DNA of 32,000 nucleotides from Candidatus Saccharimonadota bacterium. Lineage in GTDB: Bacteria; Patescibacteriota; Gracilibacteria; BD1-5; UBA6164. Shown piece after piece: positions 1 to 32,000 of the stretch (position 1 is its first letter; the number at the start of each line of letters is the position of its first letter). The translations under genes were made by a program, and so were the position numbers. The notes below the pieces were generated by a model. The model was not told where the DNA came from. It saw only the letters and a program-made list of their open reading frames with translations, and made no database searches. The DNA lies in assembly GCA_965227835.1 (NCBI GenBank), contig OZ245768.1:270001-302000 (forward strand). Reading direction: 5' to 3'.

Positions 1-541
1 TTTATTTTATAATCCCAAACCTCTTATGAAATGATTATATGAAAAAATGTGTACTAAGCAAGGAGTAGAATCAGCAAGAATCCTCGCGAGGTCGATACTT
101 GAAGAAAACAAAGGAAACGTAAGTAAAACAGCTTATATATTATGATGTTCTCGTAAAACAGTAAGAAGAAGTAGAGATGGTCCTATAGAAAATATATCAA
201 GAGCTCCTAAGACTCCTCATAATAAAAAAACATCTTCTGATTTAGAATGACTTGTATTACAAGAACGAAATAAAACAAAATATTGAAGAGTACGTCTAGC
301 AAAGTATTTATTCCTCAGATATGGAATAACATTCTCTTCCTCTACTATATGAAATATACTAAAAAGAAACAAAGTAAAAAAGCATCATTATTCTCGTAGA
401 AAATGAGATAGTAAACCTCTATACGATTATCAAAATATTCTTCCCTTTGAGTATGGTCAAGTAGATACAAAGCATATAGAAGATTTTGAAGCTTTATGAG
501 AACTTTGTTTTATACTAAGAAAATATAATCTTCCTTTATAT

Positions 542-757
542 CTCAAAACTACCCACTTTTTATAAAAAGTATACCTATATTTTACTTTAAATAAAGGGAA
601 ATTAAGCTATTTTTAATGTTTTATCTTTAGTATTTTATAAATGACTTATTTAAGCTAACTTTATCTTTATAAAATTCAATCAATATAAAATCTATGTTTT
701 TACTTATATAAAGGTAAAAAATAAAATATAAAATACAAAAAACTGGGTAGATTTGAG
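542..757. mobile_element. 216-bp non-autonomous MITE derived from the IS at 894-2178
   Basis: The termini are ctcaaaactacccacttttt ... aaaaactgggtagatttgag, an inverted repeat that shares its first ~26 bp and last ~20 bp with the 1285-bp IS. It is flanked by the 6-bp direct duplication ttatat (536-541 and 758-763). The uninterrupted copy at 23095-23100 has a single ttatat. There is no ORF inside. Confidence 0.9.
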
Positions 758-893
758 TTATATCAATGGACATATATATGTGCTAAAACAAAATATAAAT
801 TTATAGCTTATTCTCATAGTCTTTCTTCTGAATTTGGTCTTATGTTTATACTTACTATAGCTACATATCTTAGGAGTATGTGAATATATTATC

Positions 894-2178
894 CTCAAAA
901 CTACCCACTTTTTATAAAATCGACATATGAGAATAAGGATAACTGAGGGAAATGTAGGTTGTTTTTATTATTTAAATTTTTAATATGTTTTTTAGGAGGT
1001 TTATACAACTTTGTTAAACAATAAGATATAAATTTAACAATAGAATTAGAATTCATAGTTATTCATCGAGATTTTGTATAATCTCTAAATCTAGATTTAA
1101 ATCTAGAAGAAAGTATAAACCTCTGATTCTCACAAAAAGAATTATTCTTTTTATATATAGTCCTAGTCAAAGCCATAGCCAACTGTATAGTAGAAACAAA
1201 ATTTTTAAATACTATTAAACTCTTAGCTTGAAGTTTCTCAAGCTGAAACTCCTGCTTCATAGTTTTAAATATTGTCTCTATTTCCCGTCTTTGTTTATAT
1301 TCTTCTATATCTGTTTTTCTTGAATTTGATAATATCCTCATTGGTTCAGGAAATTTAGGATTTGATTTAATATGAAGATATATTGATTCATTAACTGAAT
1401 TAATTCTTACCTTATGAACTCAATCTTTAAATTCCTTTAATTTCAAATATTTATTGGTTTTTAAATCAAAATATATCCTATTCTTTTTAGCTCTTATTAT
1501 CCATCTATTTACACTATTATTTAAAAACTCTATATATGATGCTATATCATATCAAGCATCATATACATATATTCACTTTCATTTAGTATAATCTTCTACT
1601 TTTTTAATTAATTTTCAAAAATATTCAGATTTAAATTTATTAGTTAAATCTTCATACTCAAGTATTACAGGAATTCAATTTATACTTACTCAATGATACA
1701 TATATCAAGAAACTATATTTCAAGTACTTCAATCTCTTACTTTAGATAAATTTTCTAGCTTCTTTGAGTATTGTTTTGCTATATCAACTTCATCAAAAAC
1801 TATATAATCATTTTTATTTATTTTTCATAACATAGAAAAACATCTTTTTTCTACTTTTAGGTTAAAATTTTTAAAACTATCTTTTTCAAAGAAATGTTTT
1901 ATTTTTTCACTCATTTTGTTAGGATTTTTATATTTTCAAAATCATAATTTGTTCATTATTGTTGTTCTTAGCTTTATTATATCTCAAAAAAACTCTTTAA
2001 TAAATCTTTTATCATTTTTGCATTCATATTTCATTAAATATCATAGTTCTTTGTTTATTATTTTTTGTATTTCTTGCATAAAAAAAAGTAATAATAATAT
2101 ATTACTTCAATTATTAGATTATCCCCTCTGTCAAGCTTTTTTTAGACTTTTTTATTAAAAAAACTGGGGAGTTTTGAG
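894..2178 (-). mobile_element. Autonomous IS of the IS4/IS5 superfamily (DDE_Tnp_1 type), 1285 bp, nested inside the IS481-like element
   Basis: The terminal inverted repeats are ctcaaaactacccacttttt (894-) and aaaaactggggagttttgag (-2178). The 6-bp target duplication attatc sits at 888-893 and 2179-2184, and the empty site is present once at 23225-23230. It carries one transposase gene. Confidence 0.9.
1063..2079 (-). CDS. DDE transposase, IS4/IS5 superfamily (338 aa under code 25)
   Basis: The frame is open for 339 codons with TGA=Gly. The exact Y(2)R(3)E(6)K signature is present in YKQRREIETIFKTMK. Candidate DDE aspartates lie in FDEVDIAK / VRDGSTG and YVYDAGYD. The track ORF 1063..1341 is its C-terminal fragment. 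The start at 2079 is in frame with the Met at 1914. Confidence 0.85.
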
Positions 2179-2669
2179 ATTATCATATGGAATTTCAATG
2201 AGATAATGGCCCTGCTGATTTTTGTGGATGAAGTAAGAGAAAGGAAAATCAGTGGAATGCTATATTAAATAATATAAATTGCTGTTTTAAGAGTATTCCT
2301 GCTTGAAAAAAATATCTTCAATGAATTGTAGAGAGATCTCATAGAACTGATGATGAAGAATTATATAGACCTTATCTTGATCGCATGAAATCTCTTCCTA
2401 ATTTTTTAAACTATAGTAGTAAATATATTTATACTTATAATAATTATAGACCTTCTTTTTGAATAGGTATGAACGGTTTAAGTCCTATTGAAAAACTTAG
2501 AAGTTGTAATATAATTCTTCCTACAAAATTTAATAATTTCCCTGTCCTTATCCTAGATAATCTTGCTAAAATTGGTGGTACCTATCTAAAGGACCATTAC
2601 CTTTCTTGATTTTTTTAAATAGAATTTAGAAAAATAATAAAAAATTATATTTTAATTGAAATTTATAGC

Positions 2670-3509
2670 TTATCTTTTACTCCTATTAAAAGCATCTTCG
2701 CTAAAAATTAGATCAAAATTTTCCAGTATCTTAGTTCAAGAATTAGGGATAACTATATAAGAATTTTTAACAATTATATCTTTGTTGGTCACGAAAGTAT
2801 CTAGTAACAATTTAGAGTAATTATTCAAAGCATTATATCTTTTTATAAATTCTCAAAGAAAAACTGTATTTGTTCTTAGGCTTATTTCTTTATACTTTAA
2901 TTCATAGTAAGAATCCAAATGACTAAAAACTTCTTGAGCTCTTGATTTAGCAAAATCTATTTCTAGAGTATTTTTTAAACTTGATATCTCTGATCTAACT
3001 CTATCATTTTCAGCTAGAAGTATATCTATTTGTTTCTTTATATTGCTAATACTTTCATTTGTAACTGTATACCTTATTTCAAGCTGTTTTATTATATTTT
3101 CTAAAGTCCTTTCTCTATCTCTTGAATTTTTGATTTCTTCTTTGAAATCTGTTTTTAATATATTGTAATACTCTTTTATAGATGTCATATTATAAACTAT
3201 AGATGATTTTACTCTGTTTGTATTTTTATAAAAATCATCTGGTTTAAATATATCCTTGTTTATTCTTTGCTCACTTATAACAGAATTTTTATTAAATCAC
3301 ATTCATATATTGCTTGTTATAGCTACTCATACATTGGCTATAGGAATAAGAACCACATTTTTATAATTTTCACTATTTTTAGCTTCAACTTTTTTTATTT
3401 TATCTTCAGAAAAACTTTCAACTAAAAATAAAAGTCAAACTGTCAGAATTAAACTTAGTGTTGTTATTTTGGCTATATTTTTTATAATACCTGTCATTTT
3501 TATATCCAT
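2670..3509 (-). CDS. Hypothetical membrane-anchored coiled-coil protein (279 aa)
   Basis: There are 280 codons without TAA/TAG in AT-rich DNA. The N-terminal hydrophobic segment is ITTLSLILTVGLLFLV. The central region is heptad-like and charged (track ORF 2853..3188, in the same frame). Several in-frame TGA codons are present. Confidence 0.65.
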
Positions 3510-3570
3510 TAGTTTTATCTAACTAAACTAAAATAATTAAACTTTTACTAATTTTATCATAAAAAGTCCA

Positions 3571-5586
3571 ATGAGTAAAATTTTTAGGTTCTTATTTTCT
3601 TTTTTATTTTATATTTTCTATATTAATCTTACTTTTGCCCAAGATTTAAATGATATTGAAATAATATCAAGACAAGAATGGTGAGCAAATGAGTCTTTTA
3701 GATACCTAGACTCTCCAGAATGGCAAGAAAAGCTAGAAATATGGAAAAATATGCCCAAAAGAGAATTAACTCCACAAGAAGAATATAGAGCAAATATAGA
3801 AGCTTTGAAGATGCAAAAAGCTAACAATTATATAGTTAATAATCACTCTTCTATATTTTCAATAGATAATATAAAAACTGAAGATAACTGACGCAAACTT
3901 GCTTGGCCTATTTCTTATTCCAAAAAAAAAGCATCTATAATAGTTCATCATACAGATACTCATACAAAACCTTGAGAAGATAGTTATGATGTTATAAGAA
4001 ATATATACAACTATCACTCTTTAGGTAGATGATGGGGTGATATATGATATAATTTTTTGATATGATTAAACTGAGAAATTTTTGAAGGTAGAGCTTGATG
4101 AGATTACTCTGTTTGAGCACATAATAAATGGAATAATCAACATAGTATATGAATATCTGTTATTTGAAATTATCACTGAGAAAAAGCTAGTGAAAAACAA
4201 ATGGAATCTTTGGAAAAATTAATTGTATATTTGGTAGATAAATATGATATAAATTTAAAAAAGAAGATGCCTTTTTTTAAATGGTGTGCTGGAACAAGTA
4301 AAGAATGCCAAGAAAAACCACTTATTATAGATTATAACTATCCTATAATATGACATAGGGATGCATGACATACTAACTGTCCGTGAGATGCACTTTATGC
4401 ACAATTACAAATTCTGAAAAAAGACCTATGAGTTTGATTTTCAGATAAAAATCAGAGTTTTTTAGAAAAAATTGAAGTAAATTTAAAAAAATTCAGCGAA
4501 GATAAACTACTTGACTTATTATCAAAGATTGAGCTTGTTTTGGATAAAGATGATTTGAAAAATAGAGATTTACTATCAGGAGTAAGAGATATTATTTTAA
4601 AAATAGAAAAAGATAGAAATGTATATATAAAAAACTCTAATTATAGTTGAAGTTTTGATTTAGAAAATAAAATAAAGGTTAAATTGAGCTATCCTTTCAG
4701 TGATACTATTTCTTTTAAAATAAACTCTTCTCTTTCTCTTGATTTTATAAAAAATAAAAAAGAATATATTCTTGATTTTAGGAATAGTTCTAAAGATTCC
4801 AAAAACCGTAATTTGTTTAGTTTTAATTTAGTTGGTAGTAAGCTTTTTTCTGAAAATGTGGAAATAGTTGATTTTTCAAAAGTTGATTTTTTTAGGATTA
4901 GAGTTCCTAAAGATGAGGTAATAGAGATAAAATCTTGGAAAAGGAAACCAAGCTGGGATAAATCTGGTACTTTAAATGATAATAAATTTAGGTGAGATAT
5001 AGTACTTTATTTAAAAGATAATAAGCTTGTGGTTGTAAATGATGTTTTTTTAGATGATTATCTAAAATGATTGTGAGAAGTCAGTGATAATACAAATATA
5101 GAGAAAATTAGAACTATTATAATCCTTGCTAGAACTTATGCTAGATGGTACATAACAAAAGCTAGAAAATTTGCATGAGAATGGTATGATGCTTCAGATG
5201 ATCCAAATGTATTTCAAAAATATTTATGATTTGGTTTAGAACAAAGGAGTCCTAATGTAAATAATATAGTTGAAGAAACTAGAGATTTAGTTATTACTTT
5301 TGATTGAAAATTAATAAAACCTTGGTATTTTTCTTCTAGTGAATGAAAAACTACTTCTTTCATAGATTTTTGTAAAACTTCAAAGTGAGTTCCTGACTGT
5401 GCTTATCCTGAAAATTTTCCTTTTTTAGTTTGAGTCATAGACAACGGTTGAATTTGAAAACAAAAAGCATGACATTGAGTTTGAGTTCCTTGAACCTGAA
5501 TACAATATTTAGCAGATAGGCAGTGGAATTTTTATATGATTATAAAATATTTCTTGAGATGAGTTGAGGTGAATCTTAGGAGATAG
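3571..5586 (+). CDS. Secreted peptidoglycan hydrolase: N-acetylmuramoyl-L-alanine amidase (amidase_2/PGRP) domain fused to a SpoIID/LytB-like domain (671 aa)
   Basis: The signal-peptide-like N-terminus is MSKIFRFLFSFLFYIFYINLTFA/QD. Amidase_2 motifs are IIVHHTDT, GWGDIGYNFLIG..GEIFEGRAGG and GHRDAGHTNCPG. SpoIID-like motifs are YLKGLGEV..E..ILARTYA and GHGVGVPGTG. All of these glycines are partly TGA-encoded. The stop is TAG at 5584-5586. Track ORF 4684..4995 is an in-frame fragment. Confidence 0.85.
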
Positions 5587-5604
5587 GAAAGAAATTTTTG
5601 GATT

Positions 5605-6465
5605 TTATTTCGAAAGTACATCGTTTATTTTTTTTATAGTTTGGGAGTATATAAAAAATGATATTTCCATATATTTTTCTTCTCCAAATAATTTTAATAT
5701 TTCTCTTTGTTTATCAAAAACCTCTTTTATGCTGTGTTTACAATAGTAATCAAAGAAATTTTCAAAAATATTTCAGGAATTAAATACCTCTCATAGTCTT
5801 TCCAAAATTTCTTCTGGTAGTTTTTCCATTGATTCTATATTATCTTCTATAAAAGATTCAGCTAGTCTTAAATTCCATTTTTTTATATCTTCTATTGAAA
5901 CTAAAATATGATTTTGTAATAAACTTATCTCTCAGTCTTTCTCCATAAAAAATGGAAACATTGGGGATATTTGGGGAAAGTATATGTTTGGATATATTTT
6001 TACTCACCAGTAATTTTGAGCTATCTGAGAATACCTATGATAAGTACTAAAATTTTCCATTCAGCTTTCTTGTAGTGGTATTATAGAAACAGGTTTTTTA
6101 TCTTCAAAAACACTATCATTTGATGGATTAATAAAATGATTTCAAAGCTGAATTCAATTTTGGAAATGTCCTCAAAATTGAATTCAATATACTCTTTTAA
6201 AAACTCATCACTTTTCTTGTATGTCTTTTACCAATTTACTAAATTTAGACATCTTTTTAAATACTTCTAAACTTATTTGTCAGCAATATCATTTAGGATA
6301 TTTAGAACTTCAAATATATTTTTCATCTACTTCTTTTCTGATTTTCAATAGATATGAAGTTAGATTTGATATATTGGGAACTATCATTTCATCACTTATT
6401 TTTTCTTGATTTTTATCATCAAAAACTATTGCTTGATCTATTTTAGTTGCTTGGTAAGTTAACAT
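5605..6465 (-). CDS. Hypothetical protein (286 aa)
   Basis: There are 287 codons free of TAA/TAG with many in-frame TGA codons. I recognised no family motif. Confidence 0.6.
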
Positions 6466-6628
6466 TTTTTTTAATATATTTATACAAAAAGTTTTTCTAT
6501 TTTAAGTACAAACAAAAAAAGTCAAGCAAAAGTCATTTGAAAAACTCTTCTTTTTTGTTAATTTGGTTTTTATTATGAGGTTATTTTGAATTTCAGATAA
6601 AAATTTTATTTTTAATCATTATGTTATT

Positions 6629-7384
6629 ATGAAGAAATTTGCAGATTATACGATGAAGTTTTTTATTTTTTTGACTATTTTTTTATGAATAATAACTATT
6701 ATAAAACCAGAGTTAGTTAAAGATTTTATAGAATGGTTAAAAATTGTAATAAATGATTTATGATACATCAACTATTTTATAATATTTATTTCTAGCTTAA
6801 TTGAGAGCTTACCTGTAGTTTGAATAGTTATTCCTGGTCAAAATATATTGATGCTTGTGTGAGGTTTTTTTGCTGAAATATCAATGATAAACTTTATTTT
6901 TACTATGATTATAGCTAGTTTTTGAGCTATAATATCTAATTTTTTGTGATATTATCTTTGAATTTTGTATTGAAAGACATTTTTTGAGAAATACTGATTA
7001 CGGTTTTGAATATGAGAAACAGAAGTTAAGTATTTGGAAAAATGAATAAAAAAATGGGGAGCTTGGGGTATAATTATTTGAAAATTTCACAACTTAACTA
7101 GAGCTTTTATACCTTTTATTGCAGGTTCTATGTGAATGAAGGCAAAGATTTTTTGGATTTATAACATAATATGATCTATAATTCGGGCTTCATTTATAGT
7201 TGTTTTAGGTGTATTTTTTGCAGAACACTACGAAACTATAATTGATTATTTTTCCTACATAATAGTTTGAATAATGGTTTTGACTTGATTGTATATTTAT
7301 AAATACAAAAAATCAGAGTTTTTAAATTATATGAATGAAAAAAATATTGAAATAGAAAGAAAGATAGGCTGACCTAAGTCTTAG
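6629..7384 (+). CDS. DedA/SNARE-associated family membrane protein (251 aa)
   Basis: DedA-type motifs are LIESLPVVGIVIPGQNILMLVGGFFA and GKFHNLTRAFIPFIAGSMGM. It has multiple hydrophobic helices. The stop is TAG at 7382-7384. Confidence 0.85.
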
Positions 7385-7386: not shown

Positions 7387-8148
7387 TTACTTCTTAAAAA
7401 AATTTGGAATAAAAAGAGGAGTTTTTTCTTTGTAATCTTTGTAATTATTTTTACTTTTGTAAATTTTTTCTTTCATAGGTACTCAAGAGACAAAACCTAT
7501 AAGTAAACTTATTACTACAAATCATAAAATTCAAAAAATAGAATATTGTATAGATATTACACTTATTCCTAACCAGAAAACTATTTCTCAAAGATAGTTA
7601 GGATGTCTAGAATAATACCAAAGTCATTTGGTACAAATCATATTTATTTTTTTGTTTTCTTTTATAAATTTATTTAATTGTTTATCTGCGACTATCTCGT
7701 ATCAAAGTCATATAGCTGATATTATTGCTCATATTATACTAAGCTCTAGTATATATCAGTTTGTATTATAAAAAATAATAAAAATTGGTGTTGATACTAA
7801 TAGTACCAATACCATTTGTAGCATATACACTTGAAAAAAACTTCTTGTATAAAAGTATTTCCACTGTGTCCTCCATTTTGCATATCTTTTGTCTTCTCCA
7901 GCTTTTTTAAATTTTTTGTAAGCTATGTGAGATGAAATTCTAAGTGACCATAATATAATTAAAGCAAATGTTATGAAATGAGCTATATTTTTATTTTCGC
8001 AGTACAAAAAAAGCATTATTGCTACTAATCCAAAAGCCAATCACCATAATACATCTGCGATGGAGTTGTCTTTTAAGTACAAAGATAATATGAAAGTGGC
8101 AATATATACTATAAAAATTATAGTTATTATACTTATAAAAATCTCCAT
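7387..8148 (-). CDS. DUF1295 / steroid-5-alpha-reductase-like membrane protein (253 aa)
   Basis: Motifs are DNSIADVLWG, GEDKRYAKWR and GLWYYSRHPNYLGEIVFWLG. Track ORF 7756..8040 is an in-frame fragment. It is convergent with the DedA gene, with a 2-bp gap between them. Confidence 0.85.
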
Positions 8149-8156: not shown

Positions 8157-8570
8157 TTATTTAATAATTTGCATAACATAATAACTTACACCAGCAACTG
8201 CTGTTCAAACAAAGGTTCACCATGCTATATCTACAAGTGTAAATTTAAGTGAATAGTTATTTAAAAATGTTAGATTTGTTAAATCATACATAGCATAACT
8301 CATAGCTCATAAAAGAGCTCAATAGATCAATACTTCTTTGTAACTGTTGAATTGTAATGTTACAAATATTACTATCATACTTGATATTATTGCCCATGCT
8401 GTTAGTCAAACTCAAAGCTGTATTTTGATTTTACCGTTTTCAACTACTACCATATCTCAAAATTCTTTGATTATAAAATTTTTAGTTACATGTCAAAGCC
8501 ATATATAGTCAAGTAAAACAAGCACTAAAAATGCAGATAAAAAAACAACTATGTATTTATATATTTCCAT
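8157..8570 (-). CDS. DUF2177-like small membrane protein (137 aa)
   Basis: It spans 138 codons. Motifs are LLDYIWLG and YAMYDLTN, typical of DUF2177. It has four hydrophobic segments and is probably co-transcribed with the DUF1295 gene. Confidence 0.7.
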
Positions 8571-8860: not shown

Positions 8861-9337
8861 TTATATTTTTTCATAATTAACCACTTTTCTTGCCCAAACT
8901 CAGTGTATAGTGCATCTAACTCTTACTTCGTATTCATCTAAATCTGATATGTCAAAATCTGTTTCGGGGGGCATATCTTCTTCTAAAAATACTTCATCTA
9001 CTATATCTCAATATTCATCATAAAGTCATATTGATGTTATTCTATGTTCTAGTCAGCAAGGATGTATTTCTTCTTTTCATATACTAATTTTTATATTATC
9101 TTTATCAATACTTTTTATATCTATAAAATGACTTTGTTCTAGTTTATCTATTGTACTTTTTTGTATATAGTTTATTTCTTCTTTTATTTCATGAAATATA
9201 TCAGGTAGTTCGGAGCATACAGGGCAGGTATAATAATCTCACAGGTCATAAAATTTCGTTCCTGCGGGTATATTACTATCTAAATCTCCTAGGTCTTCAT
9301 CGTATATATAACTACAATTTGTACATATATATCTCAT
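8861..9337 (-). CDS. Rubredoxin-domain / superoxide reductase (neelaredoxin-like) fusion protein (158 aa)
   Basis: The N-terminus YICTNCSYIYDE...GTKFYDLGDYYTCPVCS is a rubredoxin CxxC...CPxC pattern. The C-terminus carries EQSHFIDI, EEIHPCGLEHRITSIGL and RCTIHGVW, which matches the His4-Cys SOR centre pattern (E-x-H, HPxxxxH, C-x2-H-G-x-W). Confidence 0.75.
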
Positions 9338-22470: not shown

Positions 22471-23655
22471 TTATCTGTACCAGTAGATAGGTACCACTAT
22501 TTATTGATATGGAATTGTGTAAAAAAGAGGATGAGGATATAATAGATTTTGTAAAAAATTTTATTTTATAATCCCAAACCTCTTATGAAATGATTATATG
22601 AAAAAATGTGTACTAAGCAAGGAGTAGAATCAGCAAGAATCCTCGCGAGGTCGATACTTGAAGAAAACAAAGGAAACGTAAGTAAAACAGCTTATATATT
22701 ATGATGTTCTCGTAAAACAGTAAGAAGAAGTAGAGATGGTCCTATAGAAAATATATCAAGAGCTCCTAAGACTCCTCATAATAAAAAAACATCTTCTGAT
22801 TTAGAATGACTTGTATTACAAGAACGAAATAAAACAAAATATTGAAGAGTACGTCTAGCAAAGTATTTATTCCTCAGATATGGAATAACATTCTCTTCCT
22901 CTACTATATGAAATATACTAAAAAGAAACAAAGTAAAAAAGCATCATTATTCTCGTAGAAAATGAGATAGTAAACCTCTATACGATTATCAAAATATTCT
23001 TCCCTTTGAGTATGGTCAAGTAGATACAAAGCATATAGAAGATTTTGAAGCTTTATGAGAACTTTGTTTTATACTAAGAAAATATAATCTTCCTTTATAT
23101 CAATGGACATATATATGTGCTAAAACAAAATATAAATTTATAGCTTATTCTCATAGTCTTTCTTCTGAATTTGGTCTTATGTTTATACTTACTATAGCTA
23201 CATATCTTAGGAGTATGTGAATATATTATCATATGGAATTTCAATGAGATAATGGCCCTGCTGATTTTTGTGGATGAAGTAAGAGAAAGGAAAATCAGTG
23301 GAATGCTATATTAAATAATATAAATTGCTGTTTTAAGAGTATTCCTGCTTGAAAAAAATATCTTCAATGAATTGTAGAGAGATCTCATAGAACTGATGAT
23401 GAAGAATTATATAGACCTTATCTTGATCGCATGAAATCTCTTCCTAATTTTTTAAACCATAGTAGTAAATATATTTATACTTATAATAATTATAGACCTT
23501 CTTTTTGAATAGGTATGAACGGTTTAAGTCCTATTGAAAAACTTAGAAGTTGTAATATAATTCTTCCTACAAAATTTAATAATTTCCCTGTCCTTATCCT
23601 AGATAATCTTGCTAAAATTGGTGGTACCTATCTAAAGGACCATTACCTTTCTTGA
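22471..23655 (+). mobile_element. IS481-like insertion sequence, copy 2 (intact); the left boundary is approximate
   Basis: Positions 22560-23655 match copy 1. A 14-bp inverted repeat is present: tagataggtaccac at 22484-22497 and gtggtacctatcta at 23624-23637. The whole insertion is bracketed between 22470 and 23680, because the paralogous upstream region (21013-21022) has only aagctt there. Confidence 0.75.
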
Positions 23656-23676
23656 AACTTTTTCCAAAAAATCTAA
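22585..23676 (+). CDS. IS481-like DDE (rve integrase core) transposase (363 aa)
   Basis: The N-terminal HTH-like region is ARILARSILEENKGNVSKTAYILGCSRKTVRR. The DDE triad context is QVDTKHI, FQGDNGPADF and VERSHRTDDEELY. There are 15+ in-frame TGA codons. The ORF passes the TGA at the element terminus (23653-23655) and stops at TAA 23674-23676 in flanking DNA. Confidence 0.88.
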
Positions 23677-23746: not shown

Positions 23747-25372
23747 TTGAAAACATCAGACTTATTTGTAAAAATCCTTGAAAAAAAAGGAGTAGAAACT
23801 ATTTATTGAGTGCCTTGAGAGGAAAATCTAGATTTGCTTGATTCTATATGAAAATCCAAAATAGAACTAATACTAACTAGAAACGAGCAAACAGCAGTTT
23901 TTATGGCAGCCAACTATGGTAGATTTACTTGAAAACCATGAGTGGCTCTAGCTACCCTATGACCATGAGCAACAAATATGATGACCTGAATAGCCTATGC
24001 TCAGCTTGGATGAATGCCTATAATTGCTATAACATGACAAAAACCCCAAAATAAATCAAAACAATGACAATTCCAAATAATAGACATAGTATCTATGATG
24101 AAACCTATAAGCAAATACTGTATTAGTATAGTTTCTTGAAATAGAGTACCATATATACTTGAAAATGCCTTTAAAATAGCAGAAGAAGAAAAACCTTGAG
24201 CCGTGGTTATAGAACTCCCAGAAGATATAGCATGAGAAGTTGTTAGTGAAAACTTTAGTATAATAGACCTAAAAACAGAAAAACAAAGACGACCAGTAAT
24301 AGATGATAAATGATTGAAAAACCTAATATCTGAATTAGAAAATGCTAAATCTCCTGTAATACTTATATGAGCATGAGCTAATAGAAAAAGAATCACTAAA
24401 TACCTAACAAAATTTATATACAAATACAATATACCTTTTTTTAGCTCACAAATGTGAAAGTGAGTAGTTGATGAAAGAAGTGAGCAATATATAGGAACGG
24501 CTGCTTTGACATCTTGAGATTATATACACAATTGTCTAAAAGAATCTGATCTTATAATATCTGTTTGATACGACGTAGTAGAAAAACCAACAGAAATACT
24601 TGGTATAAATGGGACAAAACTTATAAACATAAACTTTTTTTCCTCATACTATGATTATGTTTATAGTCCCTATTTAGATGTAGTATGAGATATAGCCAAT
24701 ATCTTTTGGTCTCTTTGTCAGCAAGAAATTGATTCATCTTGATGGGATTTTTCTAAAATATATGAAATTAACAAAAAAAATAAGGCACAAATAGAGGAAA
24801 ATATCAAACTTGAAGATAAGTTTTCTTATATGATGCCTAGAAGACTTTGTAAAGAATTGAGAAAATACCTGTGAGAAGATGATATACTTACACTTGATAA
24901 TTGACTTTACAAAGTATGGATAGCAAGAAACTATCCAGCCTATATGCCAAATACTTTGGTTTTAGATAATGCACTAGCAACTATGTGAGCCTGATATTCT
25001 TCAGCTATGGAAGCTAAAAGACTTAATCCAAATAAAAAAGTAGTGTGTGTTACCTGAGATTGATGACTTATAATGAATCTTTGAGATTTAGAAACAGCAG
25101 TTAGATTAAATCTAGATTTGGTAATAATAGTCCTAAACAATAATTCCTACTGAATGATAAAATGGAAACAAGAATGAGCTTGATTAAAAAAGTTTTGATT
25201 AGATTTTAAAAATCCAGATTTTGTAAAACTAGCTGAAAGTTTTGGAGCTAGATGAATAAGAATAGAAGATAAAAATGATTTCTGACCTGTATTAAAAGAT
25301 ATTTTAAGCAAAAAGGGCATCTCTATAATTGACTTGCGATTCTCATATCCTCAGGATACAGGAATCATTTAA
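23747..25372 (+). CDS. Thiamine-diphosphate enzyme, acetolactate synthase-like (541 aa)
   Basis: Motifs are [49 protein letters not shown], and the ThDP motif TGDGGLIMN...NNNSYGMI (TGDGG at 25052-25066, three Gly are TGA). The putative start is TTG at 23747, and no in-frame ATG lies between the upstream TAA and this point. The standard-code ORF 24001..24429 (-) is antisense to it. Confidence 0.88.
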
Positions 25373-26138
25373 TTAACTTTATTTCTTCTAATCAAGCTGT
25401 TTCCTCAATAGAGTTTATTGAAAAATTAGAAGAATTCTCTAACTGACCTCTTACATGTTTTATGATTTTTCCAATAGCTCTATATTCCATAATACTTACC
25501 TTTCAGCAAGATATTCATGTTAATTTTGACATTTTTCTATAACCAGCTTTTTCATTACCCTTTGTAAGTCTTGTTTTTAATACTATCTTTTCTTCTGGTT
25601 TTAGACTTTCAAAAGCACTATAAATTTTTCCAAAAAGTAAAATTAAATCAGAATATCTTTCAGGATTTTCTACAGAGTCTGCATTGTCTTCAAAATATTC
25701 CTCGTCACAAAGACCTTCATTTTCAATTATAGAATCAACATATGATATTGTATCTTCTACTTTCAATCAAATATTATATTGTGCTATAATATTTCTCATT
25801 CCTCATTCTATACACTCTCTAGCATATTTTGAAAATCTAGCCTGATTTTCTGCTTTAAAACTCTTAACAGCTTTTATAAGAAGCTCATTTCATGTTTGTA
25901 TCAAATCTTCTTTTTCTAAGTTATCTATTAAAGGTTTTTTTTTCAAACATTTTTCTACTATAGGTACAACCAAATGAAGATGTGCTTTTATTACTCTTTC
26001 CTTTGCTTTTTCATCTCATAATCTTACTTTTCTCCAAAGAGCTAATTCTTCTTTTTTACCTAAACTTTGTATATCTTGTATACTTTTTGCATAATCTTTC
26101 AATCCTTCTGGAAAACTTTCTAAGTTTACTTTATTCAT
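25323..26138 (-). CDS. RNA polymerase sigma factor, sigma-70 family (271 aa)
   Basis: The region 2-like part is EELALWRKVRLGDEKAKERVIKAHLHLVVPIVEKC ... ARFSKYARECIEGGMRNII. The region 4 HTH is YRKMSKLTGISCGKVSIMEYRAIGKIIKHV. Track ORF 25515..25766 is an in-frame fragment. The last 14 codons follow an in-frame TGA (25366-25368) and overlap the 3' end of the convergent ThDP enzyme gene. Confidence 0.8.
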
Positions 26139-26303: not shown

Positions 26304-27674
26304 ATGACAACTTTAGAATCAACAAATCCATACAGTGAAGATAAAAATTGAAAAAAATTTTCTCTTTTAAACAGGGAAAATATAGATGTTATCATAAAAG
26401 ATTCACATAATGCTTTTTTGTCTTGGAAAGACACACCTGTAAGTGAAAAAAAATTATTATTTTTGTCTTTGGCTGATACCTTGGAAAATGATTTGGAGGA
26501 TTGTTCTAGGCTTCAAACTATAGAAATGTGAATGCTTTATAGTCAATCAAAAGCTTGAATGTTAGGTACGGTTAATCTTATAAGATGGTTTGCAAATAAT
26601 TTTGAGGAAATTCTAAAATCTAGAGAATTTGAAAGTGAATGAATAAAATGAAGAGAAATGTATGATCCTCTGGGAGTTATTTTTTGAATTGCCCCTCGGA
26701 ACTTCCCATTTAACCAGCTACTTAGAGCTGCTGTACCCAATATTTTAGCAGGTAATACTCAAATATATAAACATTCATCAAGTGTACCTATGTGTGCTCA
26801 AAAAATACAAGATTTATTTGATAAAGCATGATTTCCAAAGGGTGTTTACACAAATTTATTTGTTTCATCAAAGGATAGTGAGTATATAATTTCAAACAAA
26901 TTTGTTGCTTGAATAAACCTCACTGGATCAGAATGAGCTTGATCTTCTGTAGGTTCTCTTGCTTGAAAATACTTAAAACCCTCTGTACTAGAACTTGGAG
27001 GTAATGATGCTTTTTTAGTTTGTGATACTAATAACTTAGAAGATGTAGTTAATATGGCAACACAATGAAGAAATAGAAATGGATGACAGGCATGTAACTG
27101 TTCAAAAAGATTTATAGTCCCTGAAAAATATTATGATGAGTTTTGTGAAAAATATATTGAAGCTTTCAAAAAATTAAAACCTTGAAATCCTATGGATGAA
27201 GATACTACACTTCAGCCATTATCTAGTATTTCAGCTTTGGAAGAAGTTGAAGAGCAGATTCAAAAAGCTATTAAGTCTTGAGCAAAGCTTTTATATTGAT
27301 GAAAAAGACTTGATATAAAATGATATTTCATATCTCCAACTGTGCTTTGAGATGTTACTCCTAGTGTTTCAAGTTTTGACGAAGAAATATTTGCCCCTGT
27401 TGCTTCTATTATAAAATCAAGCAATTTAGAAGAATCAGTTTCTTTGGCAAATAATTCTCAATTTTGACTTTCAGCAGTTGTTGTTTGAGATGATTTGGAA
27501 CAATTAAAAAGTGTTTCTGAAAAAGTGGAATGATGAATGATTTTTATAAATCAAATAGCTTGATCAAAAGCTTCTTTACCTTTTGGTTGAGTTAAGAAAA
27601 GCTGATATGGTAAAGAAAATGGTCCTGAATGATTAAAGGCTTTTACAAATAAAAAAGTTATTTTGTATCCTTAG
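26304..27674 (+). CDS. NAD(P)-dependent aldehyde dehydrogenase family protein (succinate-semialdehyde dehydrogenase-like; 456 aa)
   Basis: ALDH motifs are GVIFGIAPRNFPFNQ, LTGSEGAG, the catalytic Glu in LELGGND, the catalytic Cys in GGQACNCSKRF, and EEIFAPV. The stop is TAG at 27672-27674. Confidence 0.9.
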
Positions 27675-28013: not shown

Positions 28014-29324
28014 TTATATATCTTCTTTCTCAACAAAAACCTTCTTTATCTCCACATCACCCATTTTTGACTTAACTACATTCAAAACTCTAAATTCTAT
28101 ATTATTATGTTTCACATATTCCTTATTTGATATTTCAAATAAGATTTTTTCTCAAGAACTAGGAAACCTCTTCAATTTTTCAGTCAGCATATAACTAAGT
28201 GTTTCTCCTGAAAACTCTTTTTCAGATAATCACAAATCACTATAATCCATCTCAAGTTTATTCAAAACCTCCTCAAAAAGTACATCTGATTCTACTACCA
28301 AACTATCATTACCTATCTCTCTTATCTCATCAGTTTCTTTATCCGTTTCATCTCTTATCTCTCAAAAAATCTCCTCAATTACATCCTCAAGTGTCACAAG
28401 ACCTGCAACACCTCAATATTCATCCATAACTATAGCTAAATGTTTTCTTGATTTTTGGAAAACCTTAAGTAAAGAATCTATATCTTGATTTAAAGGAACC
28501 CTCAAAACCTCACTTAGATTCAAATCTTTCAATTTTTTATCTTCATCTTGATTTATCAAATCTCTAACGGTCATTATATTACTTATCTTATCTATAGTTT
28601 TAGTATATACAGGGATTCTAGAATGAGTATGATTTAAAAAATATTCAAAAGCTTTTTTCACCGTAGTTTCTCTTGATAAAGCCTCTATTTTTACCCTAGG
28701 AGTCATTATTTCTTCTACATCTGTATTTGAAAATTCAAGTATACTTTTTATCTTTTTATGTTCTTCGTCTTTCAAAGCCCCATCTTCTTTTCAAATATCC
28801 ATAAAACTTTCTATTTCTTCTTCTGTTATTTTTTTTGAATTACTATCTTTGGAAAAAATCTTTATAAGAATTTCTAGAAAACTTATAATAGGATAGATGA
28901 TAATCATTAGAACTTTGTATATAGGAGCAACTATTAGAGATATACTTGCTGAGTTTTTAGTTGCAATTGATTTTGGTATTATTTCACCAAAAAGCAGTAA
29001 TAAAAATGTTATTATTCAAGTTGAAAGTCATACAGCTGTACTTTGAGTAAGTCACATTCATCATGATAAAGCTATATTTATAGCTATACTTGTAGCAAAA
29101 GCTGCTGTGAAAGTATTTACTAAATTATTTCAAATGAGAATAGTTATAAGTAGCCTATCACTATTTTCTCTGATTTTTTTTAAAGATTTACTTCAAAGTT
29201 TTTTTTCCTTTAAAAGAGAATCAATTTTATGTTCTGGTAAACTCATCAAAGCTAATTCTGTTCAAGAAAAGAAAGCTGATAGAAAGAATAAAAAAACGAA
29301 GAGAATTATCTCAATGGGGCCCAT
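28014..29324 (-). CDS. DUF21-CBS-CorC_HlyC domain membrane protein (hemolysin/CNNM family; 436 aa)
   Basis: The N-terminal DUF21 part is LSAFFSGTELALMSL...LITILIGNNLVN..LLLLFGEIIPKS. The CBS pair region is track ORF 28413..28775, which is in frame. It continues across a TGA as [26 protein letters not shown], followed by a C-terminal CorC_HlyC-like domain. Confidence 0.9.
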
Positions 29325-29452: not shown

Positions 29453-30550
29453 ATGTTAAAGGAAAAAAGTATAGTTATATTACACGATACATTTTTATAC
29501 AAATGAGGGTGAGAAAAGCTAATGATAATGATGCAAAAAGTATTGAAATGTGATATAGCTACAGGTTTTGTAAGTAAGGGTAGTTTTGATTTGAAAAAAG
29601 AATGAGTATCAAAGAAAATAATAGAAATAAGTTCTGAAATATTTAAGTCTGGTTTTAGGCATATAAAACTAAAATGGGCTTTTTTATTTAAAACAAAATT
29701 TTTAAAAAACTATGATACAGTTATTTTCTCTTGAGACTGTCTAAGTGCTGTTAGAAATTGCAATAAAAACTCTAAAAAAATATATTATTGTCACACTCCT
29801 CCTAGATATTTATATGATTTAAAAAATCAGTATTTAAAGAAAGTTAAATGGTATATAAAACCTATATTTATATTAGTTTCATCAATATTTAGAAAAATAT
29901 ATGAGAATGATATAAAGAAAATGGATATTATAATAGTTAATTCAAAAAATACTGGAAAAAGGTTAAAAAGATTTTTGTGATATGATTCTCAAATAATTTA
30001 TCCTCCTGTGAAAATAGGGGAGTTTAAATATATAGGACAAAAAGATTATTATCTTTCTTTTGCTAGACTTTGTGATGCAAAAAGAGTTTGAAATATAGTT
30101 AAAGCTTTTAGAGAAATGCCTGAAAAAAAATTGGTAGTAATATACTGACAAAATGATCCCCAAAAAAATGAAATATTTAATCTTTGAAAATGATTTAGCA
30201 ATATAGAATTTAGAACTCTTGTAGAAAATGATAGATTTATAAATTATATATGAAATTGTATAGCTACTATATATATACCTGTTGATGAGGATTTTTGAAT
30301 GAGTCCAGTTGAATCTATGTCTGCTTGAAAACCTGTTTTAGGGGTAAATGACTGAGGATTAAAAGAATCAATCATACATAAAAAAACTTGATTTTTGATA
30401 GATAAGCAGTGAAAAATAGATGATATAATAGATGTGGTTCAAAATTTTTTAACACCAGATAAATGTTTGAAAATGAGAAAAGATTGTGAAGAGAGAGCAA
30501 AAGATTTTTCTTATGATAAATTTGAAAAACTCATAAATAAAATTATTTAA
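29453..30550 (+). CDS. Glycosyltransferase, GT4 (GT-B fold) family (365 aa)
   Basis: The C-terminal donor-binding motif is [34 protein letters not shown] (E-x7-E type). It spans 366 codons without TAA/TAG. Confidence 0.8.
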
Positions 30551-30733
30551 AAAATTTATTAATTAAAGAGTGAAGAATTGCTTCTTAATAACAAAAATAA
30601 ATATTTTTCACAATTTCCTTAAATATAGAAGTTTATGAATATTCTCTTTAAAAAAATATAAGTTTTGTTTTTTTTTCAAAATATAAAAATTCAAATCTTT
30701 TCATTAATTCTAAACCTAGAAATTAATTAATTT

Positions 30734-31855
30734 ATGAATATAAAAAATAAAAAAATAGCAATAGTTGCTGACTGGATAAAAGATTTATGAGGTGCTGAAC
30801 TTGTACTTGAAAATCTTATTCATATATTTCCCAATGCTGATATTTTCACTTCTGTTTTTTTTCAAGAAAAAACTAACTTTTTTAAGAACAAAAAAATAAA
30901 AACTAGCTTTATACAAAAAATTCCTTTTTTGGCTAAATCTCATAAATTAGCTTTAATTTTCAGACCTATAGCCTTTGAAAGTTTTGATTTTAGGCCCTAT
31001 GATATAGTTATTAGCTCAAGTAGCGCTGAAAGTAAATGAATAATAACAAAACCAGAAACTTTATTTATCTGTTATTGTCATACTCCTACTCGTTATTTTT
31101 GGAGTCATTACCATGAGTATTTAGGTATGATGGAGTTTTGAAGTATCTTGAATTTTATTTGAAAAAGACTCGCTCCTTTTATTATAAATAAACTAAGAAA
31201 ATGGGATTTTGTAGCTGGACAAAGACCAGATTTTTTTATAGCTAACTCTAAAAACACTCAAAAAAGAATCAAAAGATATTATTGAAGAGAGTCTTTTGTA
31301 ATTTATCCTCCTTTGAAATTAAAAGAATTTAAATTAAAACAAACCAAAAAAGATTTTTATTTATATGTTTGAAGATGTATTCCTTACAAAAAATTTGATT
31401 TATTGGTAGATGCCTTCAACCAAAATGGTAAAAAACTAGTTTTAGTTACAAATACAGATAATAAGCTTTATAGAGATTTAAAAATTAAATCCAATAGCAA
31501 TATATCTTGGAAGTTTAATATCTCAAGAAAAGAAATATGCAAACTCTATTGAGAAGCTAAGGCTTTTTTATTTCCACCAGAAGAAGATTTTTGAATAGTT
31601 GTTTTGGAGGCTATGGCATGTGGTACACCAGTTATAGCTTATAAAAAATGAGGAGCTTTAGAAACTGTAGTACAAAATAAGACTTGAGTTTTTTTTGATG
31701 AACAAAATATAAATTCTCTAAATTCTATTATAAATAAATTTGAAAAAATGAATTTTGATGCTAAAGAAATAAGAAAATATTCCTTATGATTTAGTGATAG
31801 TATTTTTGAAAAAAACATTTTAAATTTTGTTGAAACTAAATATAATAAATGGTAA
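30734..31855 (+). CDS. Glycosyltransferase, GT4 (GT-B fold) family (373 aa)
   Basis: The motifs are [35 protein letters not shown]. The N-terminal IAIVADWIKDLGGAELVLENL is typical of the family. Confidence 0.8.
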
Positions 31856-31894
31856 TATATAGATAGAGTTTAATTTTTAATTTTATAAAAACTT

Positions 31895-32000
31895 ATGACT
31901 ACGGAGGAAAAGTTTGATATAGTTTTATCAAAATTAGATAGTATTGCTTATTGACAGGAATCTCTTGAGAAAAAATTTTGAGTTGTTGAGATAAGACTTT
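31895..32000 (+). CDS. Hypothetical protein, 5' fragment (runs off the window)
   Basis: From the ATG at 31895 the frame is open to the window edge (MTTEEKFDIVLSKLDSIAYGQESLEKKFGVVEIRL...). It is too short to classify. Confidence 0.4.

What the first reader, a model, noticed from the sequence alone, without database searches (positions are those of the whole stretch)
1..32000. The whole window is recoded: TGA is a glycine codon (translation table 25), so the supplied ORF track is misleading
Under the standard code only one ORF exceeds 150 aa. When TGA is read through, the window resolves into about 27 contiguous genes that use only TAA/TAG as stops. The identity of the inserted residue is fixed by invariant glycines written as TGA. 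The Fic motif is cat cct ttt tta gat TGA aat TGA agg act TGA agg, giving HPFLDGNGRTGR (19118-19153). The ABC Walker A is TGA aaa agc TGA caa TGA aaa act aca, giving GKSGQGKTT (11368-11394). The HrpA Walker A is GETGSGKTT (17343-17372, minus strand). The ABC signature is LSGGERQ. The ThDP motif is acc TGA gat TGA TGA, giving TGDGG (25052-25066). Trp is still written TGG. Code 25 is established for Gracilibacteria and Absconditabacteria (SR1). That lineage assignment is an inference from the code plus the AT-richness.
Basis: partly seen in the sequence, partly recalled or inferred. Interest (0 to 1): 0.8.

Follow-up and report, generated by a model that had tools for sequence, protein, structure and literature searches.

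The report
Gracilibacteria DNA: TGA glycine, CGG tryptophan
This 32-kb stretch comes from an uncultivated Gracilibacteria bacterium that reads the stop codon TGA as glycine, which is a known oddity of that lineage, and it very probably also reads the arginine codon CGG as tryptophan, which standard translation tables miss.

Summary
With the standard code the window has one ORF of at least 150 aa. With TGA read through it resolves into 26 gene models that cover 83% of the window and end only in TAA or TAG.

TGA means glycine, not tryptophan:
- For the aldehyde dehydrogenase, Gly gives the best Pfam score of all 20 residues (403.8 bits). Ala is next (367.9) and Trp is worst (321.2).
- 68 of 125 TGA sites face Gly in solved-structure homologues, and none faces Trp.
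- In 20 orthologues TGA swaps with GGN (253 TGA, 191 GGN) and never with TGG.
- TGA is 4.2% of all codons and 69% of glycine codons.

The closest relatives are all Candidatus Gracilibacteria. This is the established code 25, so it is not new.

One refinement is worth keeping. All four CGG codons in the window sit at tryptophan positions, while CGA stays arginine. This matches a 2021 computational prediction of CGG=Trp for "some Gracilibacteria". That reassignment is absent from table 25.

The tRNA-Gly(UCA), a tRNA(CCG) and the absence of RF2 could not be checked. The window holds only tRNA-Cys.

Public protein collections hold table-4 translations of these genes, with Trp at every TGA.

The parts
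1..32000 (.). Whole window: chromosomal segment of a Gracilibacteria bacterium, 25.4% G+C, in which TGA is a sense codon (Gly)
   Evidence: There are 368 in-frame TGA in 26 gene models. Coding density is 83%. Stops are TAA 19 times and TAG 7 times.
2..565 (+). g01: 5' fragment of an IS transposase gene (HTH). It is a 100% copy of the start of g20, cut off by inserted elements. 7 TGA.
   Evidence: repeat D2: 1-300 = 22560-22859.
901..2079 (-). g02: IS4-like DDE transposase. 16 TGA. One CGG (1285-1287) sits in the RWxIE position of the catalytic motif.
   Evidence: PF01609; 38.8 bits rises to 45.6 bits when CGG is read as Trp.
2187..2618 (+). g03: 3' fragment of the same IS transposase as g20 (rve_3). 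6 TGA.
   Evidence: repeat D3: 2179-2478 = 23225-23524.
2670..3509 (-). g04: hypothetical protein with an N-terminal hydrophobic segment. 6 TGA.
3571..5586 (+). g05: N-acetylmuramoyl-L-alanine amidase plus SpoIID domain protein. 36 TGA.
   Evidence: Amidase_2 scores 72.7 bits with Gly against 49 with Trp.
5605..6465 (-). g06: hypothetical protein. 14 TGA.
   Evidence: no Pfam family.
6575..7384 (+). g07: DedA/VTT membrane protein. The likely start is 6629. 19 TGA. Two CGG codons (7001-7003 and 7184-7186) sit at Trp positions.
7387..8148 (-). g08: DUF1295 membrane protein. 10 TGA.
   Evidence: 192.7 bits with Gly against 148.7 with Trp.
8157..8570 (-). g09: DUF2177 membrane protein. 8 TGA.
8861..9337 (-). 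g10: rubredoxin plus desulfoferrodoxin-domain protein. 6 TGA.
9428..9501 (+). tRNA-Cys(GCA), the only tRNA gene in the window
9649..10167 (+). g11: hypothetical protein. 8 TGA.
10279..11919 (+). g12: ABC exporter (transmembrane plus ATPase domains). 26 TGA. Walker A at 11368-11394 and the signature motif at 11674-11694 are written with TGA.
11971..12531 (+). g13: hypothetical protein. 12 TGA.
12571..13266 (+). g14: pirin. 12 TGA.
   Evidence: 110.1 bits with Gly against 75.4 with Trp.
13986..17549 (-). g15: DEAH-box (HrpA-like) helicase. 37 TGA. Walker A GETGSGKTT at 17343-17369.
17816..18076 (-). g16: small hypothetical protein. 2 TGA.
18530..19621 (+). g17: Fic-domain protein. 16 TGA. Motif HPFLDGNGRTGR at 19118-19153, with three Gly written as TGA and both Arg written as AGG.
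20259..20648 (+). g18: IS200-type Y1 transposase. 5 TGA and no GGN. The CGA at 20334-20336 sits on the conserved Arg of the KYR motif, so CGA stays Arg.
   Evidence: 105.9 bits falls to 99.8 bits if this CGA is read as Trp.
21109..22386 (-). g19: tandem-repeat protein (7.2 copies of 156 nt) with no TGA. It is the only long ORF under the standard code.
22585..23676 (+). g20: intact IS transposase (HTH plus rve_3). 14 TGA.
23747..25372 (+). g21: acetolactate-synthase-like ThDP enzyme. It starts at TTG 23747, not at the first ATG (23903). At least 34 TGA. TGDGG at 25052-25066.
25323..26138 (-). g22: sigma-70 family protein. 8 TGA.
26304..27674 (+). g23: succinate-semialdehyde-dehydrogenase-like aldehyde dehydrogenase. 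27 TGA. The CGG at 26697-26699 sits at the invariant Trp of the PWNFP motif.
28014..29324 (-). g24: CNNM/CBS/CorC-type transporter. 13 TGA.
29453..30550 (+). g25: family-4 glycosyltransferase. 15 TGA.
30734..31855 (+). g26: family-4 glycosyltransferase. 11 TGA.

Best explanation
The window is ordinary chromosomal DNA of an uncultivated, very AT-rich Gracilibacteria (BD1-5) bacterium.

Shown here:
- UGA is a sense codon that stands for glycine. It is in fact the main glycine codon (69% of Gly codons).
- UAA and UAG are the only terminators.

Inferred from the lineage, and not visible in this window:
- UGA is read by a tRNA-Gly with anticodon UCA.
- Release factor 2 has been lost, so nothing competes for UGA.

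Shown here at the level of site conservation, with about 0.8 confidence:
- The rare codon CGG (4 of about 8,850 codons) no longer means arginine. It stands for tryptophan.
- It is presumably read by a tRNA(CCG) carrying tryptophan identity.
- CGA, CGU, CGC, AGA and AGG remain arginine.

In practice, table 11 shatters every gene. Table 4 inserts Trp at about 4% of positions. Table 25 is right except at CGG.
For: TGA is a sense codon:
- One ORF of at least 150 aa under table 11, against 26 gene models and 83% coding density with TGA read through.
- Pfam domains are matched end to end across many TGA.

TGA means Gly:
- Aldehyde dehydrogenase against Pfam, with TGA set to each residue in turn: Gly 403.8 bits, Ala 367.9, Ser 364.3, X 348.3, Trp 321.2, which is the lowest.
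- Gly beats Trp in all 19 family comparisons across 10 proteins.
- With TGA masked as X, 68 of 125 TGA sites face Gly in PDB homologues. The background Gly frequency is 7.2% (binomial p about 1e-43). None faces Trp. GGN-encoded Gly faces Gly at 33 of 50 sites.
- In 20 Gracilibacteria orthologues the window's TGA columns hold TGA 253 times, GGN 191 times and TGG 0 times. Its TGG columns hold TGG in 39 of 40 cells.
- Without TGA, Gly would be 1.8% of residues. With it, Gly is 6.0%.

Lineage:
- The best named hits and all 20 genome loci are Candidatus Gracilibacteria or Patescibacteria, at no more than 63-70% identity.

Literature:
- UGA=Gly in this lineage was confirmed by proteomics (PMC4032931).
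- prfB is absent from the closed genome and from the other BD1-5 genomes available at the time (PMC6851277).
- tRNA-Gly(UCA) is expected in the lineage (PMC8629427).

CGG means Trp, at all four CGG codons:
- g23 aa132 is the invariant Trp of PWNFP. Seventeen of 20 orthologues have TGG there, and two others also have CGG. Reading it as Trp adds 9.2 bits.
- g02 aa265 gains 6.8 bits with Trp.
- g07 aa143 is Trp in 112 of 120 homologues.
- g07 aa204 gains 2.7 bits with Trp. The 'R' that databases show there is CGG in 5 of 5 genomes sampled, and TGG in a sixth. The invariant Arg176 is AGA in all of them.
- Across 26 related loci plus the window, after filtering to non-overlapping longest ORFs, CGG sites pair mainly with TGG at 16 sites and with Arg at 1. 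AGA sites do so at 1 of about 976, and AGG sites at 0 of 156.

CGA stays Arg:
- The conserved Arg at g18 aa26 loses 6.1 bits if read as Trp.
- CGA sites pair with Arg at 11 sites and with TGG at none.
Against: - No tRNA(UCA), tRNA(CCG), prfA or prfB lies in the window or in about 0.5 Mb of fetched related loci. The decoding machinery is therefore inferred, not seen.
- The CGG inference for this organism rests on only four codons.
- One of them (g07 aa143) is mildly disfavoured as Trp by the general Pfam model (-2.3 bits), although lineage homologues are 93% Trp there.
- There are no protein-level data for this organism.
- Splitting CGA (Arg) from CGG (Trp) is considered mechanistically awkward if a tRNA(UCG) is present (PMC8629427).
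- The persistence of G+C-rich CGG at one DedA site across diverged, AT-rich genomes is not what a purely synonymous Trp codon would predict.
Confidence: 0.9

Rival explanations
1. Plain table 25. UGA is Gly and every other codon, CGG included, is standard. On this reading the four CGG sites are genuine Arg substitutions.
For: Table 25 is the accepted code for the lineage, and the closed reference genome was annotated with it (PMC6851277). There are only four CGG codons in the window. One of them is not favoured as Trp by the general Pfam model. DedA proteins are known, from my own knowledge, to carry membrane-embedded arginines.
Against: - Arg at the invariant Trp of the aldehyde dehydrogenase PWNFP motif would have had to arise independently in three genomes, each time through CGG.
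- At DedA aa204 the supposed Arg is CGG in 5 of 5 genomes, while real Arg is AGA (244 AGA against 4 CGG in the window). The alternative residues at that column are Trp and Tyr.
- The filtered cross-genome tally has CGG pairing with TGG at 16 sites and with Arg at 1, and that one is in a 43% G+C genome.
Confidence: 0.15
2. Table 4 (Mycoplasma-type). UGA is tryptophan in an AT-rich reduced genome.
For: G+C content is 25% and UGA is a sense codon. The public protein collection holds exactly this translation of two of these genes (P0001, P0122).
Against: - Trp is the worst of the 20 residues for the aldehyde dehydrogenase (321.2 against 403.8 bits).
- Trp scores lower than Gly in every family tested.
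- None of 125 TGA sites faces Trp in PDB homologues.
- TGA never swaps with TGG in orthologues.
- Trp would make up about 4.8% of residues.
- The relatives are Gracilibacteria, not Mollicutes.
Confidence: 0.01
3. Standard code, in which the TGA codons are real stops (a decayed genome full of pseudogenes), selenocysteine sites or programmed read-through sites.
For: None beyond the formal possibility.
Against: - There are 368 in-frame TGA but no in-frame TAA or TAG across 26 frames, whereas the other two frames carry 8-9% TAA/TAG.
- Full-length domain matches span the TGA codons.
- TGA positions are conserved Gly columns and are shared or swapped with GGN in orthologues.
- 4% of codons is far beyond any selenoproteome.
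- Rfam finds no SECIS element or any other RNA apart from one tRNA.
Confidence: 0.005

Closest known systems
NCBI translation table 25 (Candidate Division SR1 and Gracilibacteria code; Campbell 2013, Rinke 2013; proteomic validation Hanke 2014, PMC4032931)
   Same: UGA is glycine. UAA and UAG are the only stops. UGG is Trp. The genome is AT-rich. The closest relatives are Gracilibacteria.
   Different: CGG appears to mean Trp here, whereas table 25 keeps it as Arg. The defining tRNA-Gly(UCA) and the loss of RF2 could not be examined in this window.
Absconditabacteria code predicted by Codetta (Shulgina & Eddy 2021, PMC8629427): UGA=Gly plus CGA and CGG=Trp. The CGG=Trp reassignment was also predicted for 'some Gracilibacteria'.
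   Same: UGA is Gly and CGG sits at conserved Trp sites. CGG is very rare (4.5 per 10,000 codons here). G+C content is low, and AGA is the dominant Arg codon.
   Different: CGA behaves as Arg here (the conserved Arg in the IS200 transposase; CGA pairs with Arg and never with TGG in relatives). Only CGG of the CGR pair is reassigned. The tRNA evidence used in that paper is not available here.
Table 4 (Mycoplasma/Spiroplasma and several insect endosymbionts): UGA=Trp
   Same: UGA is a sense codon in a small, AT-rich genome. RF2 loss is the presumed route in both cases.
   Different: The amino acid is Gly, not Trp. Trp was tested and rejected at both the profile level and the codon level.
Candidatus Gracilibacteria bacterium 28_42_T64, closed genome CP042461 (Sieber 2019, PMC6851277)
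   Same: The same code and a similar G+C content (29%). Orthologues of the aldehyde dehydrogenase (59%), acetolactate synthase (71%) and DedA (59%) are present, and the same CGG sits at the DedA site (L021). It also carries a repeat-rich gene.
   Different: It is a different species. The source contig here is 1.49 Mb against 1.34 Mb. No GTDB representative shares more than 63% identity in the aldehyde dehydrogenase.

Membership tests
Translation table 25 (SR1/Gracilibacteria code) | UGA is a sense codon, not a terminator | tested here: met
   There are 368 in-frame TGA and no in-frame TAA or TAG. Pfam domains span the TGA codons.
Translation table 25 (SR1/Gracilibacteria code) | UGA encodes glycine | tested here: met
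   Gly is the best of 20 residues by 36 bits. 68 of 125 sites face Gly in PDB homologues. TGA swaps with GGN in orthologues.
Translation table 25 (SR1/Gracilibacteria code) | UAA and UAG remain the stops | tested here: met
   All 26 models end in TAA (19) or TAG (7). Protein ends coincide with the ends of homologues, for example the aldehyde dehydrogenase aligned to residue 453 of 456.
Translation table 25 (SR1/Gracilibacteria code) | tRNA-Gly with anticodon UCA is present | not testable with these tools
   The window holds only tRNA-Cys(GCA). None was found in the 27 fetched loci. The rest of the genome could not be fetched.
Translation table 25 (SR1/Gracilibacteria code) | Release factor 2 (prfB) is absent and RF1 is present | not testable with these tools
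   No release factor gene lies in the window. The absence is reported for the closed relative and for the other BD1-5 genomes available at the time (PMC6851277).
Translation table 25 (SR1/Gracilibacteria code) | The organism belongs to Gracilibacteria or Absconditabacteria | tested here: met
   All named best hits are Candidatus Gracilibacteria. All 20 GTDB loci are titled Gracilibacteria, Patescibacteria or (two) 'Candidatus Peribacteria'. No rRNA or ribosomal-protein marker lies in the window.
Translation table 25 (SR1/Gracilibacteria code) | All other 63 codons keep their standard meaning | tested here: not met
   CGG sits at Trp positions at all four of its occurrences. The other codons were not examined systematically.
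Table 4 (UGA=Trp) | UGA encodes tryptophan | tested here: not met
   Trp is the worst of 20 residues. None of 125 sites faces Trp. No TGA-to-TGG exchange occurs in orthologues.
Codetta-predicted SR1-type code (UGA=Gly, CGA/CGG=Trp) | CGG encodes tryptophan | tested here: met
   Four of four sites in the window. In related loci CGG pairs with TGG at 16 sites and with Arg at 1. This rests on conservation only, with no tRNA or peptide evidence.
Codetta-predicted SR1-type code (UGA=Gly, CGA/CGG=Trp) | CGA encodes tryptophan | tested here: not met
   At g18 aa26 a CGA sits on the conserved Arg, and reading it as Trp costs 6.1 bits. CGA sites pair with Arg at 11 sites and with TGG at none. Only 7 CGA codons are in the window, and most of them lie in variable columns.

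The most novel reading that the evidence does not exclude
This organism, and apparently most low-G+C Gracilibacteria including the closed reference genome CP042461, may use a code with two reassignments, UGA to Gly and CGG to Trp, while CGA stays Arg.

That would be a split of the CGR pair, which the 2021 Codetta study considered hard to achieve when a tRNA(UCG) is present. It would also mean that every public table-25, table-4 or table-11 annotation of the lineage carries Arg at conserved Trp sites.

A further oddity is that CGG is retained at one DedA site (window 7184-7186). It is CGG in the window and in 5 of the 6 related genomes sampled, and TGG in the sixth, despite strong AT pressure. 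This hints that CGG is not simply interchangeable with TGG. Possible reasons are selection on the codon itself or ambiguous decoding.
Probability: 0.75. Interest if true: 0.5.

Novelty: new member of a known kind. Interest (0 to 1): 0.3.

Why it matters
UGA=Gly in Gracilibacteria has been textbook knowledge since 2013-2014, so the main finding is a correct diagnosis and not a discovery. Its value is practical.

- Any annotation of this DNA with table 11 destroys the genes.
- Table 4, which is what the public protein collection holds for at least two of these genes, puts Trp at about 4% of all residues, including Walker A, the ABC signature, and the Fic and ThDP motifs. That corrupts homology searches and structure prediction.

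The CGG result matters a little more. Sense-to-sense reassignments in bacteria are rare, and all of them are so far computational predictions. Here CGG sits at Trp sites in conserved enzymes, in several independent Gracilibacteria genomes, while CGA does not. This gives specific testable sites for proteomics and tRNA work, for example the PWNFP Trp of the aldehyde dehydrogenase at 26697-26699.

Tried and rejected
- **Fetching the source genome.** I tried to reach the tRNAs and prfB. P0001 and g19 are not on record. P0122 led only to a 7.7-kb ENA contig of the same species (L024). The cluster look-up gave no accession.
- **tRNA scans.** Scans of the window and 27 loci found no tRNA(UCA) or tRNA(CCG).
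- **Strain comparison.** The window and L024 are 97.9% identical. The 67 codon differences include none that involves TGA, CGG or TGG, so the comparison is uninformative.
- **PDB search for the IS4-like transposase.** No hits.
- **Idea: g19 is foreign.** I considered that the TGA-free gene g19 was recently acquired from a standard-code organism. I rejected this. Its G+C content and GC3 are native (0.27 and 0.11). It is a Gly-poor tandem repeat, so its nine GGN codons are few independent events.
- **Idea: g21 is truncated.** I considered that the acetolactate synthase gene was truncated by the neighbouring IS. I rejected this. The ORF continues upstream to a TTG start at 23747 and matches orthologues from their N-termini.
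- **Apparent AGG-to-TGG signal.** An association appeared in the first cross-genome tables. It came from spurious antisense ORFs, where it reflects the Pro synonyms CCT and CCA on the true strand. After filtering to non-overlapping longest ORFs it vanished, while the CGG-to-TGG association stayed.
- **Rfam at gathering threshold.** Only the tRNA was found.

Full report
**1. The observation**

The window is 25.4% G+C. Under table 11 it has a single ORF of at least 150 aa (21109-22386, minus strand) and only three of at least 120 aa.

Stop-to-stop ORFs of at least 300 aa number 1 under the standard code and 12 when TGA is read through. They stay at 1 when TAG or TAA is read through instead. The effect is therefore specific to TGA.

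With TGA as a sense codon I obtain 26 gene models of at least 80 aa:
- They cover 83% of the window.
- They contain 368 in-frame TGA.
- They end in TAA (19) or TAG (7).
- Inside these frames TAA and TAG are absent, while the two other frames carry them at 8-9% of positions.

**2. Which amino acid TGA encodes**

Four independent tests agree on glycine.

(a) Profile scores. With TGA read as Gly, Pfam domains are matched end to end. The same ten proteins with TGA read as Trp score lower in every one of 19 family comparisons. Examples are ABC_tran 90 against 53.6 bits, TPP_enzyme_C 140.4 against 95.4, and Pirin 110.1 against 75.4.

(b) A full 20-residue scan of the aldehyde dehydrogenase, which has 27 TGA in one 461-column model:

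| Residue at TGA | Bits |
|---|---|
| Gly | 403.8 |
| Ala | 367.9 |
| Ser | 364.3 |
| Thr | 361.9 |
| masked X | 348.3 |
| Trp (lowest) | 321.2 |

(c) Alignment to solved structures. TGA was masked as X so that it could not steer the alignment. 68 of 125 TGA positions face Gly in structures from standard-code organisms, against a Gly background of 7.2%. None faces Trp. Glycines written GGN face Gly at 33 of 50 sites, which is a similar rate (parsed).

(d) Codon-level comparison with 20 orthologous aldehyde dehydrogenase genes from Gracilibacteria genomes. The window's TGA columns hold TGA 253 times, GGN 191 times and TGG 0 times. The window's TGG columns hold TGG in 39 of 40 cells.

TGA is 4.16% of all codons and 69% of glycine codons. 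Without it the proteins would be 1.8% Gly, and with it they are 6.0%.

**3. Where the window comes from**

- The best named homologues of the aldehyde dehydrogenase and of the DedA protein are Candidatus Gracilibacteria. Candidatus Absconditicoccus is more distant, at 55%.
- All 20 loci found among GTDB species representatives are titled Gracilibacteria, Patescibacteria or (two) 'Candidatus Peribacteria'. The closest is 63% identical, so the species itself is not among those representatives.
- The public protein collection does hold these genes, on a 1,489,121-bp contig. P0001 and P0122 match window g23 and g07 apart from Trp at the TGA sites (P0122 also starts at the internal Met19), so they are table-4 translations.
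- A 7.7-kb ENA metagenome contig (L024) is 97.9% identical over window 2602-8881. It diverges at the edge of an insertion sequence.

**4. Mechanism: what is shown and what is inferred**

Shown: UGA is a Gly sense codon and UAA/UAG are the stops.

Inferred from the lineage: decoding by tRNA-Gly(UCA) and the loss of RF2. These points are documented as follows:
- Proteomics for UGA=Gly (PMC4032931).
- prfB not detected in the closed genome CP042461 or in the other BD1-5 genomes then available, with prfA present (PMC6851277).
- tRNA(UCA) with Gly identity elements (PMC8629427).

The window has only tRNA-Cys(GCA). None of the 27 fetched loci has a tRNA(UCA). I could not reach the rest of the source genome.

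**5. A second reassignment: CGG**

The eLife screen (PMC8629427) predicts CGA and CGG as Trp in Absconditabacteria, and CGG as Trp in "some Gracilibacteria". Following that lead, I tabulated the CGN codons.

The window has 244 AGA, 47 AGG, 11 CGT, 8 CGC, 7 CGA and only 4 CGG. All four CGG codons lie at tryptophan positions.

- **g23 aa132 (26697-26699).** This is the invariant Trp of the aldehyde dehydrogenase PWNFP motif. PDB homologues have Trp there. Seventeen of 20 orthologues have TGG, and two others (L011, L017) also have CGG. Of the 121 database proteins on hand (120 homologues plus cluster member P0121), 114 show W and 4 show R. Reading it as Trp adds 9.2 bits.
- **g02 aa265 (1285-1287).** This is the RWxIE position of the DDE transposase. 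Reading it as Trp adds 6.8 bits.
- **g07 aa143 (7001-7003).** This is Trp in 112 of 120 DedA homologues.
- **g07 aa204 (7184-7186).** Database homologues show 'R' 93 times, W 20 times and Y 7 times. I fetched the DNA of six of them. The five with 'R' all use CGG, and the one with W uses TGG. The truly invariant Arg176 is AGA in all six and in the window. Reading aa204 as Trp adds 2.7 bits.

A cross-genome tally over the window and 26 related loci, restricted to non-overlapping longest ORFs with CGG masked during alignment, gave these results:

| Codon | Sites whose aligned partners are mainly TGG | Other outcomes |
|---|---|---|
| CGG | 16 | only CGG 9; Arg 1 and other 1, both in the 43% G+C genome L019 |
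| AGA | 1 of about 976 informative sites | |
| AGG | 0 of 156 | |
| CGT | 0 of 106 | |
| CGC | 0 of 21 | |
| CGA | 0 | Arg 11, other 19 |

In the window, a CGA sits on the conserved Arg of the IS200 KYR motif, and reading it as Trp costs 6.1 bits. My conclusion is that CGG is very probably Trp in this organism and CGA is still Arg.

An earlier unfiltered version of this tally contained an antisense artefact (AGG paired with TGG). I traced it and removed it.

**6. Comparison with what is known, and novelty**

The UGA reassignment is NCBI table 25 and needs no new explanation. The window is a new species-level instance of it.

The CGG reading matches a published computational prediction for part of the lineage. 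It is not in any NCBI table and has not been validated experimentally. It differs from the Absconditabacteria version because CGA is not reassigned.

One thing remains unexplained. CGG is retained at one DedA site, in the window and in 5 of the 6 related genomes sampled. Those proteins are only 55-70% identical, and in the same genomes glycine codons flip freely between TGA and GGN.

**7. Verdict**

Novelty is low for the main claim, and interest is moderate for the amendment.

The proposed tRNA and RF2 checks, a genome-wide Codetta run and proteomics remain the decisive steps.

Noticed in passing
window 26697-26699, 7001-7003, 7184-7186, 1285-1287: All four CGG codons of the window lie at conserved tryptophan positions: the aldehyde dehydrogenase PWNFP motif, two sites in DedA, and the transposase RWxIE motif. 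CGA (for example 20334-20336) lies on a conserved Arg. This points to CGG=Trp on top of table 25.
   Followed up: yes
window 7184-7186; L021 to L023, L025 and L026 (the DedA gene starts at 10001 in each): The G+C-rich codon CGG is retained at the same DedA site in the window and in five other Gracilibacteria genomes of 22-29% G+C. It is TGG in L027. About 78% of 120 database homologues show the corresponding 'R'. A merely synonymous Trp codon should have drifted to TGG, so this is unexplained.
   Followed up: partly
P0001 and P0122 (public protein collection), which correspond to window 26304-27674 and 6629-7384: The public collection holds these two genes translated with table 4. The only differences from the window's proteins over the aligned stretch are Trp at the TGA sites, 27 and 19 extra Trp respectively. 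Such entries will mislead homology searches and structure prediction.
   Followed up: yes
window 1-2618 and 22560-23700; L024 1-1406: There are nested insertion sequences. A 100% copy of the g20 IS is split at the window start by a 219-nt segment (539-757, 98% identical to 20597-20815, next to the IS200 gene) and by an IS4-like element (g02). The near-identical strain contig L024 diverges exactly at the IS edge (window 2602). This suggests IS insertion polymorphism within the species.
   Followed up: partly
window 21109-22386 (minus strand): This is a 425-aa protein made of 7.2 tandem copies of a 156-nt unit (90% identity). It has no TGA and no Trp, and it lies between two IS elements. Its composition is native (GC3 0.11), so the lack of TGA reflects its low glycine content and not a foreign origin. 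Its function is unknown. The closed relative CP042461 also has a repeat-rich gene with unusual codon use (PMC6851277).
   Followed up: partly
window 23747-23903: The acetolactate synthase gene starts at a TTG (23747), 52 codons upstream of the first ATG. Gene callers that need ATG, or that use the wrong table, will truncate it.
   Followed up: yes
window 8742-8819 and 27762-27839: This is a 78-nt G+C-rich repeat (73% identity) that ends in a perfect hairpin, CCCTCTCC-TTAG-AGGAGAGGG. Both copies lie in intergenic DNA, the second between the convergent 3' ends of g23 and g24. They are probably terminators or a small repeated element, and they stand out in 25% G+C DNA.
   Followed up: no
window 13882-13991 (two copies) and 18295-18356; also 20086-20145 and 22381-22440: A 62-nt intergenic repeat with an internal hairpin (CAGAGAGC-TGAA-GCTCTCTG) occurs three times. 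A 60-nt repeat (97% identity) lies upstream of the IS200 gene and again between g19 and g20. The function of both is unknown.
   Followed up: no
L019 (1880-3178) and L008 (6364-7716): Two loci labelled Gracilibacteria, with higher G+C (43% and 32%), have only one TGA each in the aldehyde dehydrogenase orthologue. The low-G+C genomes have 13-34. In L019, CGG aligns with Arg in all 20 partners. Codon meaning or usage therefore differs within the labelled group, as the 2021 screen also noted.
   Followed up: partly
L017 3401-3475; L008 2409-2484; L013 15262-15338: The related loci carry tRNA-Trp(CCA), tRNA-Arg(UCG) and tRNA-Gly(UCC). An anticodon CCA reads UGG only, which is consistent with UGA not being Trp in this lineage. 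A tRNA(UCG) would matter for how CGA and CGG are kept apart.
   Followed up: no
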